NCBI RefSeq assembly: GCF_021869535.1
Contig: NW_026262604.1
Span: 46,004,001-46,068,000, forward strand
Direction of reading: 5' to 3'
Length of the DNA stretch: 64,000 nt
Source of the DNA: Mytilus californianus
Taxonomy: Eukaryota
Made by a program: the position numbers. Below, piece after piece: positions 15,001 through 21,000 of the stretch. Positions within the stretch are counted from its first letter, which is position 1, and every line of letters starts with the position of its first letter.

Positions 15001-18000
15001 GTTGCATTGTCTATTGCAAACAGGTTATACGGCAGTAAGAGTCTAAATCTTTTGAACTATTTTTCTTCGAAAGCGTCTTCATACTATGGCAGTAATGTTG
15101 AATTATTAGATTTAGTATCGGAGGCGGAGAAATGACGATTGACAATAAATGATTGGATTTCCACAAATACAAACAATCTAATAAAAGATATGATTCCGAG
15201 AAATGTTCTTTGTTCAAACACACTATTAGTAATACCAAATGCTATGTATTTATAAAGGTTACTCGGGAACACGTGTATTTGTTTACTTTTAACACGTGTG
15301 TTTAAATCAAAACATGTTTATGTTTAATTTGATTGGACCATCAGTAAGTTATTACCGGTTTAAGTTATATCAATCATGATAACTTCATGCTAGAATTTTA
15401 GCGCTAAAATTATAATAAGATATCTAGAATTGTCATTCGAGGTTCGCCTATCCGACAGAAAGGTTCGTTTTTTCTTAAATCGCCACTTGGTAAAATGTCC
15501 GAATCTTCTCCACGTCTGGAATTGAATGAAGACATACTACTCGAAGGAGATAATAGTTTACCGCCACCTAATATTCATAAAGCAGCTGATAAGTCGTCTG
15601 ATTTGGTAGATACTGTAGAGCTTTTTAAGACAATTTTAGACAGCAAGTTAGGTGAGTTGAAATCTGAACTCATACAAGAACAAGATTGCCTTAAGAGAAA
15701 AATTAAGGAGGACGTCACTCTAAAATTTAAGGGGGAAGGAAACAGAATTCAGTACACCTTTAACGAGGAATTATTAGACACTGTTAATAAACTTTCAAAA
15801 TTCATCCCTAACTCCAATACTCAAGCCTATAGATTAGTTCTTGACATAACTGATAAGATCAAAAGCCGTAATAAGAAAATACGCATAGCTGATGCTTCCC
15901 CTGCTGGTTGGGGAACCGTTAGGGAATACGAATCCAATGCCGTGGCTTCAGATTCTGAAGATGAGAGAAAGATACGACAAGCTGAGACCAGAGCTATCCG
16001 TACCTCCAAGGAGAAGTCAAAATCTCGCCAGCAACCTTACCCAAAAAATCCGCCTCGTCAACAACCTGCGGAATCTTATGGTAACCCTGCTTACGCTCAG
16101 CATTATCAACGTAATCAGCAACAGCCCTTTCGTGGGAGCTTCGCAAGGCGTGAGCCTTGCTCAATCGACACGTGCCACTACTGCAAGCAACAAGGCCACT
16201 GGAGAAAAAACTGTCCTCTTCTCGCCAGTCTCAGGTCATCCAACAGCAACTCCACAACCTACCAGAAGTAGTAAAGTAGGGCCTGAACGTCACTCTCCAG
16301 TCATTGTGAATGATAAGTATTTAGACACTATTAATGACCAATTTTCTACATGTTTTGTTGATAACGATTATATAGAATCTTTTTTAGATCAAGTTCAATA
16401 TTTTGAAAATTGTCAGTCATATGATAAATTTAAAGGGGTGAAAGGTAGATTAGCTTGTCATGTAAAGTATTGGGAAAATATAGGTGCTTGTCCTTTTGTG
16501 CTTGATACAATAAAAAATGGTTATGTTATTCCATTTATAGATACACCTTTTAAAATGTACCACAGAAATAATAGATCAGCACGGCAGAATACTGAATTTG
16601 TCACAAAGTCAATTGAAGATTTAGTTCAAATAGGTTGCGTAATTAAAGTGCCTTTTCAACCATATGTGGTAAATCCATTGAGTGTTGCTACTCAAAAGTC
16701 CGGTAAGAAACGACTTATTTTAGATATGAGTCAATTGAATAAACACATAAAGCGCGAAAAAATAAAATTTGAGGATTGGAAGTTAGCTATACAATATTTT
16801 GACAAAGATATGTATCTGTTTAAGTTTGATTTAAAATCTGGTTATTTTCACTTAGACATATGCTCACAGCAACAGACTTTCTTAGGTTTTCAGTGGGAAG
16901 GTCAATTTTATTGCTATACTGTTTTAGCTTTCGGAATTACTACCGGTCCGTACATTTTTACTAAATGTTTGAGGCCACTAGTAAAATTTTGGCGTGGAAA
17001 CGGTATAAAAGTTGTTTTGTATTTAGATGATGGATTTGGCATGAGTCCAGATGAAAATACATGTAATGAGCAATCGTCCTTCGTAAAAAGGTCTTTGATT
17101 GATGCTGGTTTCCTTATTAACGAGGAGAAGTCTGTTTTTAAACCTGTTACCGAGTTAGAATGGTTGGGAATAGTTTGGAACTCGAAAGAATACAAATTAT
17201 CTATTACTCAACGTCGAGTTGACGATTTGATTTTCTCATTGAATGTAATTTTGGCTAAATTTCCCTATGTTACAGCTAGATCTTTAGCTCAGGTTGTAGG
17301 TAGAATTATTTCTATGACTCCCGTAATCGGAAATGTGGCTAGAATTATGTCAAAGTTCTGTTACATGGAAATTGAAAGTAGAATTGGGTGGGATATTCTC
17401 ATTACAGGGTACAAACCCGTCGAGGTTTTATCAGAGTTAAAGTTCTGGTTAGAAAATGTCACCATGATTAACTATCGTAATTTATGTCATTACAGTAAAT
17501 CTTCTGTTGTCATATACTCAGATGCTAGTAATATTGCCGCTGGTGCATACACCGTTGAATTAGAAAATAAGATTTTCCATAAGATGTGGACATGTAGTGA
17601 AACGGTACAAAGCTCCACATGGAGAGAGCTGAAAGCTATAGAGTTGGCCCTTTTTTCTTTTAAGAATAGTTTCACAGGAAAAACTATAAAGTGGTTTACT
17701 GACAATCAAAATTGTGTCAAAATTGTTAATTCGGGAAGTATGAAAGAAAATCTTCATGTTATAGCAAAATCTATTTTTTCATTTTGCATTCAAAAAGGAA
17801 TATCAATTGACATTCAATGGATTCCCAGAAAAGAAAATGAAAAGGCTGATTACATCAGCAAAATGGTTGATTTCGAGGACTGGGGAGTCACACATATATT
17901 TTTCAATTTTTTAAATGATATGTGGGGTCCTTATTCGATTGACAGGTTTGCAAGTGTCGAAAATAGAAAAGTTATGAGATTTAACTCCTTATTTTGGCAA

Positions 18001-21000
18001 CCTGATTCTGAAGCAGTTGATGCATTTTCTCAAGTTTGGACCAATGAAAATAATTGGCTAGTTCCACCAATTAATCTTGTGATACGATCGATTAAACACA
18101 TTATAGCTTGTAAAGCTCGAGGCACGTTAGTTGTGCCTAAGTGGATTTCTGCTGCATTCTGGCCTTTGATATTCGATAAACATCTGATTTATCAAGATTA
18201 CGTAAAAGATGTTATTGTGTTTAAAAATACTGATGGTATTTATAAGCAAGGTTCGAATAAGAATACGATATTCGGAATTGAACCGTTTGGTTCGCCAGTT
18301 TTGGCTGTTTTGCTAGATGCATCTTAGACATGGCCCTAATATATATAGATATATTTTAGCAGGCATGGTCTGTTTGTGACATGGCCCTAATATATATATA
18401 GATATATTGTAGCAGTCATGGTCTGTTTGTGACATGGCCCTAGTATATGTATATTGTAGCAGGCATGGGTGTTTATGTTGACATGGCCCTAGTATCGGTA
18501 ATGATATTGTAGCAGGCTTGGTTTTTTATTTGACATGGCCCTAGTATCTATAATGATATTTTAGCAGGCATGGTAATTTGTTTTACAGTTTATGGCCCTA
18601 GTATCTATAAAGATATTGTAGCTGGCGTTGAAATATTTGAATATATATTATATTTTACTGTGTATAGAAATCTGAAATATGCTAATAATTCGTCCTCTGT
18701 ATATGTATATAAAATGTTATTGCAATTTTACGTTTTTCAGATATTTTTTCAGTAGGACATTGGTCAGACTTTAATTCACAAGTTGCCTCTAATAATGATC
18801 TCAGCAGTTTGTTCAAACAGTTACCAGAATTCCTTCTTTCGTCCAAGGCTGCGAGTACTCAGAAGAAATATAGATATGCCTTCAATTCATGGTGTAAGTG
18901 GACTAGTCAATATTCTTTTTCACCATTGCCAGCATCTCATTTACATATTTCTTTATATTTAATTCATTTGTCTGAAACTGCAAAATCGGTTTCAAAATTA
19001 AATGATGCTTTTTACGCCATAAAATGGGCACATAAATTAGCTGGCGTTGCTGATCCCAGTGAAAATAATCTAGTTGCATCTGTTCTTGAAGGGGCTCATA
19101 GAAAAATAGGTCATTCAGTTGTCAAAAAAGAACCTATCACACCGCATATTTTGAAAAATATTGTATGTAAATATGCTAATAATACTTGTAATTTAAAAGA
19201 TGTAAGAATAGCATGTATGTGTTTATTAGCCTATGCTGGCTTTTTAAGATTCTCCGAGTTAGCTAACTTGAGAAGGTCTGATATACAGTTTTCCCCTACT
19301 TACCTTACACTTCATTTAGTCAAGAGTAAAACTGATGTATATAGGGAAGGGAAAGATGTTGTCATTTCAAAAACAGGGAATATTACATGCCCGGTAGATG
19401 TACTTCAGCGTTATCTAAAGTTAGCTAACATTCCTGAAGAATCGAATGATTTTATTTTTAGATCTATTTGTTATTGTAAATCTTTGAATATATACAAACT
19501 TAGAAAGAGTAGTCATATTTCTTACACCAGAGCCAGAGAGTTATTGTTATCTGCACTTGACAGTTTAGGTCTTGATAAAAAACAGTTTGGCTTACATAGT
19601 TTGAGGTCAGGAGGAGCTACTGCCGCGGCAGAAGCTGGAATAGATGACCGGTTGTTTAAGAAACACGGGAGATGGAAAAGTGATAAAGCCAAAGATGGTT
19701 ATGTTAAAGAGAGTATACTCAACAGATTGTCAGTATCTAAGAATTTAGGATTGTAATTTATATTGTTTGTCCCCCCTTTTTCTTTATGTCCCTTTCTTTA
19801 TCAATCGAAGCTTTCTGTGCTGTCGGGGCGAGCTGATAACCAAAAACTGTGTTGAGTTTTTACTTTGTAAATGCTTTATGTTCGTTTGAAGTATTGAATA
19901 AGAACATAAATGTATTTATAAAGGTTACTCGGGAACACGTGTATTTGTTTACTTTTAACACGTGTGTTTAAATCAAAACATGTTTATGTTTAATTTGATT
20001 GGACCATCAGTAAGTTATTACCGGTTTAAGTTATATCAATCATGATAACTTCATGCTAGAATTTTAGCGCTAAAATTATAATAAGATATCTAGAATTGTC
20101 ATTCGAGGTTCGCCTATCCGACAGAAAGGTTCGTTTTCCCACCCACCCACCCCTTTTATTAAGACTTCATAGGAATGTGAATCAGTATGTTATGTAGAAA
20201 ATAGTTGATAAAATACATGTATGTAAATCGAAATGATTTTTTCTTCAACTTATAGAACATTTTTCTATTGTAGATTGTGTTTATATGTGATGGCAGCGGT
20301 CGATGACAGCAAATTGGACATTTGTTTATTGTTTATAATAAAAATAAGCTTTCTGTGCTGTCGGGGCGAGCTGATAACCAAAAACTGTGTTGAGTTTTTA
20401 CTTTGTAAATGCTTTATGTTCGTTTGAAGTATTGAATAAGAACATAAATTTATTTTAAAGGCACATGGAAAAAAGAATTTAACGCAAATGGCACTTCACA
20501 AAGGAACTTTTTCGTGAGAGCGAACGAGCAAAAACTAGTTCAAATGATGTACGGTGAATTTGATGTAAAGTCTGGTGAAGACCTTACACTTGACTGCAAA
20601 CTTTTACAACTGCCATATCAAGGAAACAAGGTCTCTATGATCATTGTTTGGCAAAATTCTGGTGATGAACTCTCCGAACTAGAAAGTAAATTTACTTCGG
20701 ATAATTTCAAGACTCTTGTAAGCGGCATGAAGACACAAAAGACAATAGTACGAATTCCTAAATTTACAATGAAAAGCGAGTACGATTAAAAGCCAATTTG
20801 TACAGCGTTAGGAATAACGGAAATCTTTGACAAAAAATGCTGACTTTAGTGAAATGCTAAAAGCTGATGTTACACGCGTGCACGTTACTGATGCTCGTCA
20901 TAAAGCTTATCTTGAAGTGAACGAAGAGGGGAGCGAAGCAGCAGCCGCTACTTTGTTATCTGTATCATTTACTTCAGCAAGGATTCCTGAGCCCCAGCCA

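What the first reader, a model, noticed from the sequence alone, without database searches (positions are those of the whole stretch)
15246..20449. Young, apparently transposition-competent PAT-like YR retrotransposon carrying a methyltransferase domain
Seen: three uninterrupted ORFs with catalytic motifs present, A1=A2 and B1=B2 with no visible mismatch, and no TSD. Established: split direct repeats plus a Dam-like MT domain define PAT-like elements, whereas Ngaro lacks MT and DIRS1 has ITRs. Intact examples are thinly characterised in molluscs. The host serpin has four other lesions, so it was probably dead before this recent insertion.
Basis: partly seen in the sequence, partly recalled or inferred. 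Interest (0 to 1): 0.7.

Follow-up and report, generated by a model that had tools for sequence, protein, structure and literature searches.

The report
Young PAT-like retrotransposon in mussel
An intact-looking, recently inserted tyrosine-recombinase retrotransposon of a known kind (PAT-like) sits inside a dead serpin gene of a Mytilus mussel; the class is ordinary, but this copy hints at how such elements pick targets and make their recombinase.

Summary
At 15244-20455 (+) lies a 5.2-kb element with split direct repeats A1...B1A2...B2. A is identical at 228 of 228 bases and B at 102 of 102. It has no terminal inverted repeats. It encodes Gag with a zinc knuckle, RT, RNase H, a Dam-like methyltransferase fold and a tyrosine recombinase.

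The MT domain scores below Pfam's cutoff in this copy (21.2 vs 28.1 bits). However, 54 of 66 relatives match PF05869, and the modelled fold best matches an N6-adenosine methyltransferase. That makes it PAT-like rather than Ngaro or DIRS1-like.

The host is one of six tandem intronless serpins and carries 3 stops and 1 frameshift besides the insertion.

RefSeq protein models of Mytilus californianus show near-identical copies on at least 16-18 contig-occurrences.

- The recombinase frame has no ATG. RefSeq models reach it by splicing out RT-RNase H-MT.
- The target resembles the element's B/A junction at about 13 of 14 bases.
- The MT motif lacks the canonical catalytic residue.

Verdict: a new member of a known kind. 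Competence is inferred, not shown.

The parts
15244..20455 (+). Whole element including an octamer at each end. It is 5212 nt, or 5204 nt if only one octamer is counted.
   Evidence: Repeat structure; flanks compared with serpin paralogues.
15244..15471 (+). Repeat A1, the left terminal half-repeat. Its first 8 nt are the junction-type octamer.
   Evidence: 228 of 228 identical to A2.
15495..16271 (+). ORF1, Gag-like, 258 aa, ATG start.
   Evidence: zf-CCHC E 1.8e-4, 21.9 bits against a cutoff of 20.8.
16170..16217 (+). CCHC zinc knuckle of Gag (ORF1 residues 226-241).
   Evidence: PF00098.
15892..18327 (+). ORF2, Pol, 811 aa. Its frame opens at 15889 and overlaps ORF1 by 383 nt, shifted by +1.
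   Evidence: 102 of 103 conserved columns kept.
16756..17172 (+). Reverse transcriptase domain (ORF2 residues 289-427).
   Evidence: PF00078 E 3.4e-16; profile of relatives hits Ty3 and retroviral RT structures.
17491..17865 (+). RNase H domain (ORF2 residues 534-658).
   Evidence: PF17917, PF13456 and PF17919 all below cutoff in this copy, but found in 43-49 of 66 relatives. Conserved D, E, D, D residues are kept.
17881..18324 (+). Dam-like methyltransferase-fold domain. The Pfam-matched part is 17881-18165.
   Evidence: PF05869 17.8 bits in the whole ORF and 21.2 bits for the domain alone, against a cutoff of 28.1. 54 of 66 relatives match. AlphaFold2 pLDDT 90.9. Top Foldseek match 6irx, E 2.7e-4, TM 0.61.
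18327..18626 (+). Tandem array, 53-nt unit, 5.7 copies, between the Pol stop and the recombinase frame.
18713..19756 (+). Tyrosine recombinase open frame, 347 codons, with no ATG in the first 168.
   Evidence: 56 of 57 conserved columns kept.
19181..19705 (+). Recombinase catalytic domain.
   Evidence: PF00589 E 3.7e-13; R, K, H-x-x-R, H/W and Y kept.
19808..19909 (+). Repeat B1.
   Evidence: 102 of 102 identical to B2.
19910..20137 (+). Repeat A2. Together with B1 it forms the internal B/A junction.
20138..20345 (+). Unique 208-nt spacer between A2 and B2.
20346..20447 (+). Repeat B2, the right terminal half-repeat.
20448..20455 (+). Host-type octamer, the target core. It matches the element's junction octamer at 7 of 8 bases.
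   Evidence: Four paralogues have a single octamer here.
16703..18740 (+). Intron of the RefSeq isoform X1-type models (GT...AG). It removes RT, RNase H, MT and the tandem array.
   Evidence: 608-aa proteins map to 15892-16702 and 18741-19753; splice-site bases read.
16313..18731 (+). Intron of the RefSeq isoform X2-type models (AT...AC).
   Evidence: 481-aa proteins map to 15892-16312 and 18732-19753; bases read.
14731..21093 (+). Host: an intronless serpin pseudogene split by the element. Besides the insertion it has 3 in-frame stops and 1 frameshift.
   Evidence: Four of five pieces, searched one by one, match PF00079 collinearly; lesion counts against two intact paralogues.

Best explanation
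This is a young, structurally complete PAT-like (echinoderm-form Pat1-like) tyrosine-recombinase retrotransposon of a Mytilus mussel, most likely M. californianus. It sits in the sense orientation inside an already dead member of a tandem serpin cluster.

**Shown**
- The layout is A1 - gag(CCHC) - RT/RNase H/MT-like - tandem array - YR - B1A2 - spacer - B2.
- The repeat pairs are identical and the conserved residues are intact.
- The family has many near-identical loci.
- The host had one octamer where the insertion now has two. The left octamer is the element's junction type and the right one is the host type.

**Inferred**
- The element is transcribed and reverse-transcribed.
- Its ends are restored using the internal B1A2 junction as a guide, as proposed for this class.
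- The B2-A1 junction of a closed DNA form recombines with a target through the encoded recombinase. This would act at a short shared core, much like phage att-site integration, so no target duplication arises.
- The target was chosen because it resembles the junction. The serpin NAIYFKG-coding stretch matches the junction 15-mer within 2 edits.
- The recombinase, which has no ATG, is probably made from a spliced sub-genomic RNA. That RNA joins the start of the pol frame to the YR exon and removes RT-RNase H-MT.
- Gag-to-pol expression needs a +1 shift of frame or internal initiation. Which one applies is unresolved.
For: **Structure.**. No terminal inverted repeats were found.

**Domains.**. 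54 of 66 relatives match Dam PF05869. The MT fold is supported.

**Intactness.** 102 of 103 and 56 of 57 conserved columns are kept, and the catalytic residues are present.

**Species and copy number.**
- The YR frame is 100% identical to XP_052094370.1 of M. californianus.
- Ten distinct 481-aa models occur on 18 contig-occurrences.
- Eight distinct 608-aa models occur on 16 contig-occurrences.
- All are 99.6-100% identical to the window. One model, seen on 8 contigs, is 100% identical in both exons.

**Target.**
- Four of four paralogues that align on both sides have a single octamer.
- Only 2 other sites within 2 edits of the junction 15-mer occur in the remaining 117,676 positions. One of them is the same site in a paralogous serpin.

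**Splicing.**
- The donor G|GTAAGA and the acceptor TTTTTCAG| were read.
- Five isoform classes share that intron.
- RefSeq models of M. trossulus, M. edulis, Magallana gigas and Amphiura filiformis have unrelated upstream parts yet begin the YR part at the same boundary.
- A Mizuhopecten model ends its pol part at the same codon as the mussel donor.
- At the residue after the acceptor, 48 of 49 relatives have an amino acid whose codon starts with G, against a background of 26%.

**Class definition.** Passages in PMC4157794, PMC3266345, PMC6681497 and PMC7192593.
Against: - The Dam match of this copy is below Pfam's gathering score.
- The family has V-P-P-[I/V] where N6-adenine methyltransferases have (D/N/S)-P-P-(Y/F/W). 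V occurs in 73 of 74 sequences; the canonical motif is recalled. The domain may therefore not methylate.
- No PDB chain matches the domain by sequence: 0 hits at E<=10.
- Only 1 of 218 fold matches has E<=0.001.
- The recombinase frame has no ATG.
- The splicing evidence consists of computed gene models. I saw no transcript reads.
- Copy number comes from protein clusters, not DNA. The exact ORF1 and ORF2 proteins are not in the protein collection, and the best pol hits elsewhere are 85% and 94% identical and partial.
- No other copy lies in the window, so the target rule rests on one insertion.
- No tree against reference PAT, DIRS1 or Ngaro sequences could be built.
Confidence: 0.83

Rival explanations
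1. The copy looks intact but cannot make its own recombinase, because the YR frame has no start codon. On this reading it is a passenger, and the family spread with enzymes supplied by other elements.
For: - There is no ATG in the first 168 of 347 codons.
- The pol stop lies about 385 nt upstream of where the YR frame opens.
- In DIRS-1 the reverse transcriptase can act in trans (section heading seen in PMC7192593).
Against: - The same arrangement is present in all near-identical models at other loci.
- The YR keeps 56 of 57 conserved columns and all catalytic residues, which argues for selection on the protein.
- Canonical splice sites join the YR frame in-frame to an upstream ATG.
- The acceptor position recurs in models of five species.
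Confidence: 0.1
2. It is an Ngaro-like element, and the region after RNase H is not a methyltransferase domain.
For: - Ngaro shares the A1...B1A2B2 repeat layout (PMC4157794 and PMC6681497 passages).
- The Dam score of this copy is below the cutoff.
- The canonical catalytic motif is absent.
Against: - 54 of 66 relatives match PF05869, with a best E of 1.1e-7.
- Nine of the 120 listed relatives carry a precomputed PF05869 domain.
- The confident model has a class I methyltransferase fold and its top match is an N6-adenosine methyltransferase.
- The domain has invariant DRF, W, PP and P-W-S columns across 74 sequences.
Confidence: 0.03
3. It is a DIRS1-like element with inverted terminal repeats and an internal complementary region.
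For: - It has the same protein set, including MT. DIRS1-like elements are known in the molluscs Aplysia and Lottia (PMC3266345).
- The inner end of A is an imperfect inverted complement of the start of B.
Against: - The termini are direct, not inverted. No terminal inverted pair was found with seeds of 12 or 8.
- The recombinase does not overlap pol.
Confidence: 0.02
4. It is a domesticated host gene, since RefSeq names it 'integrase/recombinase xerD homolog', rather than a mobile element.
For: RefSeq annotates it as a multi-isoform gene at many loci.
Against: - It is flanked by split direct repeats and sits inside a pseudogene.
- It carries gag and pol.
- It is present in many near-identical copies on many contigs.
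Confidence: 0.02

Closest known systems
Echinoderm-form Pat1-like elements: SpPat1 of Strongylocentrotus purpuratus, and the PAT-like family of the limpet Lottia gigantea
   Same: - Gag with a zinc finger.
- RT-RNase H-MT followed by YR in the same orientation.
- Internal repeats downstream of YR, in the split direct repeat layout A1...B1A2...B2 (PMC4157794 passages).
- The closest named non-mollusc relatives here are from an echinoderm, Amphiura filiformis, at 46-47% identity in pol.
   Different: - Membership by phylogeny was not tested.
- This family has a 208-nt spacer between A2 and B2 and a 53-nt tandem array between pol and YR.
- The YR frame has no ATG.
- The host is a bivalve. I found bivalve YR elements only as census lines (PMC10294476 and PMC8905726 passages).
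DIRS1-like elements of molluscs (LgDIRS1-3, AcaDIRS1-2)
   Same: - The same domain set, including the MT-like domain.
- Similar size, about 4.7-5.8 kb.
- A short sequence is shared between the circle junction and the target (PMC3266345 Table 3 passage; PMC7192593 passage).
   Different: - Those elements have inverted terminal repeats and an internal complementary region. This one has direct split repeats.
- The likeness between target and junction here spans about 14 nt, not 3.
Ngaro elements
   Same: Split direct repeats, no ORF overlap with YR, and YR last in the element (PMC4157794).
   Different: Ngaro lacks the MT domain. This element has it.
Sub-genomic splicing of retroviruses and some LTR retrotransposons (general knowledge, recalled)
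   Same: A downstream gene without a usable start codon is reached by splicing out pol. Full-length RNA would serve gag-pol and replication.
   Different: Here the downstream gene is the integration enzyme, not an envelope gene. The evidence is gene models only.
Phage lambda-type site-specific integration between att sites with a common core (general knowledge, recalled)
   Same: The same enzyme family (PF00589). A short common core lies at both junctions without duplication of the target.
   Different: The core is imperfect (7 of 8). The donor is a reverse-transcribed copy. No binding sites have been defined.

Membership tests
PAT-like (Pat1-like, echinoderm form) | Retroelement encoding RT/RNase H together with a tyrosine recombinase | tested here: met
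   PF00078 E 3.4e-16 and PF00589 E 3.7e-13. RNase H families are found in 43-49 of 66 relatives.
PAT-like (Pat1-like, echinoderm form) | Putative methyltransferase domain after RNase H | tested here: met
   This copy scores 21.2 bits, below the 28.1 cutoff. 54 of 66 relatives match PF05869 at E<=0.01, and the fold matches an N6-adenosine methyltransferase. The catalytic motif is not canonical.
PAT-like (Pat1-like, echinoderm form) | Split direct repeats A1 ... B1 A2 ... B2 | tested here: met
   A is identical at 228 of 228 bases and B at 102 of 102.
PAT-like (Pat1-like, echinoderm form) | Zinc finger in Gag (distinguishes Pat1-like from Toc and Kangaroo) | tested here: met
   PF00098 scores 21.9 bits against a cutoff of 20.8.
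PAT-like (Pat1-like, echinoderm form) | YR in the same orientation as pol, with the internal repeats downstream of YR | tested here: met
   Coordinates.
PAT-like (Pat1-like, echinoderm form) | Groups with PAT reference elements in RT and YR trees | not testable with these tools
   No tool could fetch the reference elements (for example GenBank X60774, named in PMC4157794), and none came back as a named hit.
Ngaro | No methyltransferase domain | tested here: not met
   An MT-like domain is present.
DIRS1-like | Inverted terminal repeats plus an internal complementary region | tested here: not met
   No terminal inverted pair was found. The termini are direct repeats.
LTR retrotransposons (Ty3/Gypsy and the like) | Two full direct LTRs, a DDE integrase and a target-site duplication | tested here: not met
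   The repeats are split. The integration enzyme is a tyrosine recombinase. The target is not duplicated.

The most novel reading that the evidence does not exclude
PAT-like elements of bivalves and echinoderms may carry a conserved internal intron. Their recombinase would have no start codon of its own and would be made from a spliced sub-genomic RNA that removes RT-RNase H-MT, as retroviruses do for env.

Integration may also be guided by about 14 nt of likeness between the B/A junction and the target, rather than by 3 nt. If so, the serpin NAIYFKG-coding motif would be a recurrent landing site.
Probability: 0.3. Interest if true: 0.6.

Novelty: new member of a known kind. Interest (0 to 1): 0.4.

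Why it matters
Tyrosine-recombinase retrotransposons are the least understood order of retroelements. How they pick targets, what the MT-like domain does, and how the recombinase is expressed are all open questions.

A complete, very young, multi-copy family in a chromosome-level mussel genome makes three of these questions answerable with existing data:
- Flanks of all copies can be compared with the junction to test target choice.
- Junction reads in RNA-seq can test the proposed splicing.
- The MT motif can be examined for conservation across the family.

It also affects annotation. RefSeq lists these loci as 'integrase/recombinase xerD homolog' genes, and one model fuses element exons to a fibrinogen-domain gene.

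Tried and rejected
- **Classical 8-bp TSD: rejected.** Paralogues show one octamer in the host. The left octamer equals the element's own internal junction octamer and differs from the right one.
- **Inverted terminal repeats: none** at seed 12 or seed 8.
- **Other copies or fragments in the window: none**.
- **PDB sequence search with the MT domain: 0 hits** at E<=10.
- **PDB search with the profile of relatives:** returned only RT and RNase H structures among the 60 shown, so it says nothing on MT.
- **Exact look-up of the ORF1 and ORF2 proteins:** not in the collection.
- **Fold of A2-end/spacer/B2-start:** not more stable than shuffles, z +0.79.
- **Pattern search for a small first exon:** 3 matches against 3.4 expected, two of them in the tandem array. 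This is suggestive only.
- **MAFFT placement of relatives' N-termini:** forced and uninformative.
- **Literature on natural splicing in YR retrotransposons:** the listings of two searches showed no paper on it. Term look-ups in three papers found either no use of the words or only an engineered marker intron.
- **Prokaryotic genome-contig collection:** not scanned, because it cannot hold mussel loci.

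
Full report
**What is there.** On the + strand, 15244-20455 holds a 5.2-kb element.
- Its left 228 nt (A1, 15244-15471) recur without a mismatch at 19910-20137 (A2).
- The 102 nt just before A2 (B1, 19808-19909) recur without a mismatch at 20346-20447 (B2).
- The repeat tool's 110-nt B pair has one mismatch. It lies in the last 8 nt, which overlap the first 8 nt of A.
- Between A2 and B2 lies a unique 208-nt spacer.
- No inverted terminal repeats were found with seeds of 12 or 8.
- No second copy or fragment lies elsewhere in the window, and the window has no N.

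**Coding content.**
- ORF1 (15495-16271, 258 aa, ATG) has a CCHC zinc knuckle (PF00098, 21.9 bits against a cutoff of 20.8).
- ORF2 (15892-18327, 811 aa) opens just after a stop at 15886. It overlaps ORF1 by 383 nt in the frame shifted by +1.
- ORF2 carries RT (PF00078, E 3.4e-16), RNase H-type matches below cutoff, and a Dam match (PF05869, 17.8 bits).
- A 53-nt tandem array of 5.7 copies starts at the pol stop.
- The recombinase frame is open from 18713 to 19756 (PF00589, E 3.7e-13). It has no ATG in its first 168 of 347 codons.
- Against 73 pol relatives the window keeps 102 of 103 columns that are at least 95% conserved. Against 96 recombinase relatives it keeps 56 of 57.
- The RT aspartates, four RNase H acidic residues, and the recombinase R, K, H-x-x-R, H/W and Y are all in place.

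- Taken alone, the domain (17812-18324) scores 21.2 bits (E 2.5e-4) on PF05869, below the 28.1-bit gathering score.
- Of 66 sequences scanned (this domain plus 65 relatives), 54 match PF05869 at E<=0.01, with a best E of 1.1e-7. The first attempt, with 74 sequences, exceeded a size limit.
- Nine of the 120 listed relatives carry a precomputed PF05869 domain.
- An AlphaFold2 model built on 74 sequences is confident: pLDDT 90.9, pTM 0.84.
- Its best PDB match is the zebrafish cap-specific adenosine methyltransferase 6irx (E 2.7e-4, TM 0.61). This is the only one of 218 matches with E<=0.001. The others are class I methyltransferases with weak scores, including E. coli Dam at E 1.3-2.4.
- By sequence, no PDB chain matches.
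- In all 74 sequences DRF, a W, PP and P-W-S are invariant. The residue before PP is V in 73 of 74, and the residue after PP is I or V in 73 of 74.
- N6-adenine methyltransferases have (D/N/S)-P-P-(Y/F/W) at that position (recalled). The domain is therefore a real, conserved methyltransferase-fold module, but whether it methylates is open.

**Class.**
- The papers I read in passages define PAT elements as YR retroelements with an MT domain and split direct repeats A1-B1-A2-B2.
- Pat1-like elements have a Gag zinc finger. The 'echinoderm form' has its internal repeats downstream of YR.
- Ngaro lacks MT, and DIRS1-like elements have inverted repeats with an internal complementary region (PMC4157794; PMC3266345; PMC6681497; PMC7192593).
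- Every structural criterion for the echinoderm-form Pat1-like type is met here.
- The phylogenetic criterion could not be tested, because no tool could fetch the reference elements.
- The closest named non-mollusc pol relatives are from a brittle star, at 46-47% identity.
- A spacer between A2 and B2 has a precedent in VIPER/SIRE (passage in PMC6681497).

**Host and insertion site.**
- The flanks belong to an intronless serpin on the same strand. I searched its five pieces one by one. Four match PF00079 collinearly at profile positions 39-122, 127-159, 161-275 and 291-370. I left out the step of joining the pieces.
- The window holds six such serpins in tandem. Two are intact at 386 aa (25239-26399 and 59008-60168). 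Three others are broken, and the sixth is the host.
- Against the two intact paralogues, the host has 3 in-frame stops and 1 change of frame besides the insertion.
- Four paralogues align on both sides up to the site, and each has a single octamer between the flanks.
- In the host the right octamer (ATTTATTT) is of the paralogue type. The left one (ATGTATTT) is identical to the octamer at the element's own B1/A2 junction.
- So there is no duplication of the target. One octamer came with the element and one was already in the host.
- The host stretch that follows continues to resemble the junction. The 14-nt host site lies within 2 edits of the junction 15-mer.
- In the other 117,676 positions of the window only 2 sites are that close. 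One of them is the same motif in the intact paralogue at 25752-25765.
- This is what recombination at a short shared core predicts. It extends the 3-nt junction/target likeness reported for DIRS1-like elements (PMC3266345; PMC7192593).
- It rests on one insertion.

**Youth and copy number.**
- There are zero differences in 330 compared repeat positions. The 95% upper bound is about 3 differences, or under 0.9% divergence.
- With an assumed neutral rate of 1e-9 to 1e-8 per site per year (an assumption, not measured), that corresponds to less than about 0.45-4.5 million years. This is my own arithmetic.
- The recombinase frame is 100% identical to XP_052094370.1 of Mytilus californianus.
- Its 90% cluster holds ten distinct 481-aa models of that species on 18 contig-occurrences.
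- A second cluster holds eight distinct 608-aa models on 16 contig-occurrences.
- All map to the window at 99.6-100% identity. One model, seen on 8 contigs, is 100% identical in both exons.
- These are lower bounds for loci and come from proteins, not DNA.
- The exact ORF1 and ORF2 proteins are not in the collection. The best pol hits are a 497-aa M. galloprovincialis fragment at 85% and a M. coruscus protein at 94% over 55% of the query.
- Recombinases 99.7% and 99.4% identical exist in M. trossulus and M. galloprovincialis.

**How the recombinase is reached.**
- The 608-aa models (isoform X1) map to 15892-16702 and 18741-19753. The intron 16703-18740 starts G|GTAAGA and ends TTTTTCAG|.
- The 481-aa models (X2) map to 15892-16312 and 18732-19753. 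Their intron 16313-18731 starts AT and ends AC.
- Models of 326, 314, 387 and 488 aa share the X1 intron.
I only mapped stored RefSeq proteins.
- Both introns remove RT, RNase H, MT and the tandem array, and both keep the recombinase in the pol frame.
- Models in other species have unrelated upstream parts yet begin the recombinase part at the same boundary, before x-I/V-F-x-x-G-x-W. These species are M. trossulus, M. edulis, Magallana gigas and the brittle star Amphiura filiformis.
- A scallop model ends its pol part at the same codon as the mussel X1 donor.
- Of 20 fused models examined, the recombinase part starts at window-frame residue 2-22 in 18 and at residue 37 in 2.
- Of 96 relatives, 49 have residues at the two columns flanking the acceptor. 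In 48 of those 49, the residue after it has a codon starting with G. In 45 of 49, the residue before it is S, T, A or P. The backgrounds are 26% and 25%.
- That pattern fits a conserved CAG acceptor but could also be a protein motif.
- These are computed gene models, and I saw no reads. That RefSeq isoforms usually rest on transcript alignments is recalled, not checked.

**Mechanism.** The structure, the intact residues, the multi-copy near-identity, and the single host octamer with a junction-type left octamer are shown. The rest is inferred:
- Transcription and reverse transcription occur.
- The ends are restored using the internal B1A2 junction as a guide, following the model for this class (PMC7192593 passages).
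- The B2-A1 junction of a closed DNA form recombines with a look-alike target through the encoded recombinase.
- Gag comes from ORF1, and Pol comes through a +1 shift of frame or internal initiation (unresolved).
- The recombinase comes from the spliced RNA.
- The MT-like domain has no assigned role. The papers call its function unknown.

**Novelty.**
- PAT-like elements are already reported in a mollusc (Lottia).
- DIRS and Ngaro types are listed in bivalve repeat censuses (PMC10294476 and PMC8905726, passages only).
- RefSeq already annotates these loci, as recombinase genes.
- The element is therefore a new member of a known kind.
- I found no paper on natural splicing in YR retrotransposons. 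The two search listings showed none. PMC3783388 and PMC3266345 do not use the words, and PMC7192593 uses them only for an engineered marker intron.
- Subscription papers and supplementary files were not seen and may bear on this.

**Limits.**
- No eukaryotic genome or read collection was open, so other copies' DNA, their flanks, insertion polymorphism and transcripts stayed unchecked.
- The direct test of competence lies outside what this report may propose.

Noticed in passing
window 25239-26399, 59008-60168, 31038-32132, 39887-41035, 48975-50119 (with the host at 14731-21093): A tandem cluster of six intronless serpin genes on the + strand. Two are intact at 386 aa and four are broken. The flanks of the insertion are 80-90% identical to the paralogues.
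   Followed up: partly
window 15446-15471 and 19803-19830 (the same sequences recur in A2 and B2): The inner end of A is an imperfect inverted complement of the start of B, so the composite B-A unit has short inverted ends like an LTR. The fold of A2-end/spacer/B2-start is not exceptional, z +0.79.
   Followed up: partly
window 15391-15414 and 20057-20080: A 24-nt near-palindrome (92% self-complementary) lies inside repeat A. It could be a protein-binding site or a hairpin.
   Followed up: no
window 18327-18626: A 53-nt tandem array of 5.7 copies starts at the pol stop and lies inside both annotated introns. It carries two matches to the small first exon implied by the M. trossulus model. Its role is unknown.
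   Followed up: partly
window 17812-18324 (ORF2 C-terminal domain): The family-wide motif is V-P-P-[I/V] in place of the canonical (D/N/S)-P-P-(Y/F/W). V occurs in 73 of 74 sequences and PP in 74 of 74. The domain is conserved but may not be catalytic.
   Followed up: partly
protein P0256 (M. californianus, 571 aa), mapped to window 15892-16311 and 18734-19714: A RefSeq model joins element exons to a fibrinogen C-terminal domain (PF00147). It is a chimeric element-host transcript model at another locus.
   Followed up: no
proteins P0245 (M. trossulus) and P0252 (M. galloprovincialis) against window 18719-19753: Recombinases 99.7% and 99.4% identical to the window's occur in two other Mytilus species. 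Either the family is shared and slowly evolving, or it has moved between species. No DNA was available to tell which.
   Followed up: no
window 43281-44343, minus strand: Three overlapping ORFs, one with a weak RT match (PF00078, E 5.1e-5, below cutoff) and a 32% tblastn hit from a pol protein. This is a degenerate remnant of another retroelement.
   Followed up: no
window 4459-4472: This is the only other site in the window, apart from the paralogous serpin site, within 2 edits of the element's junction 15-mer. It is unoccupied. It lies at the start of a 156-aa ORF with no Pfam match.
   Followed up: no
window 2173-2279 and 3599-3685; 12231-12513; 52113-52561; 58484-58641; 62960-63220: Several tandem arrays with periods of 22, 33, 197, 77 and 65 nt. 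The two 22-nt arrays share one unit.
   Followed up: no
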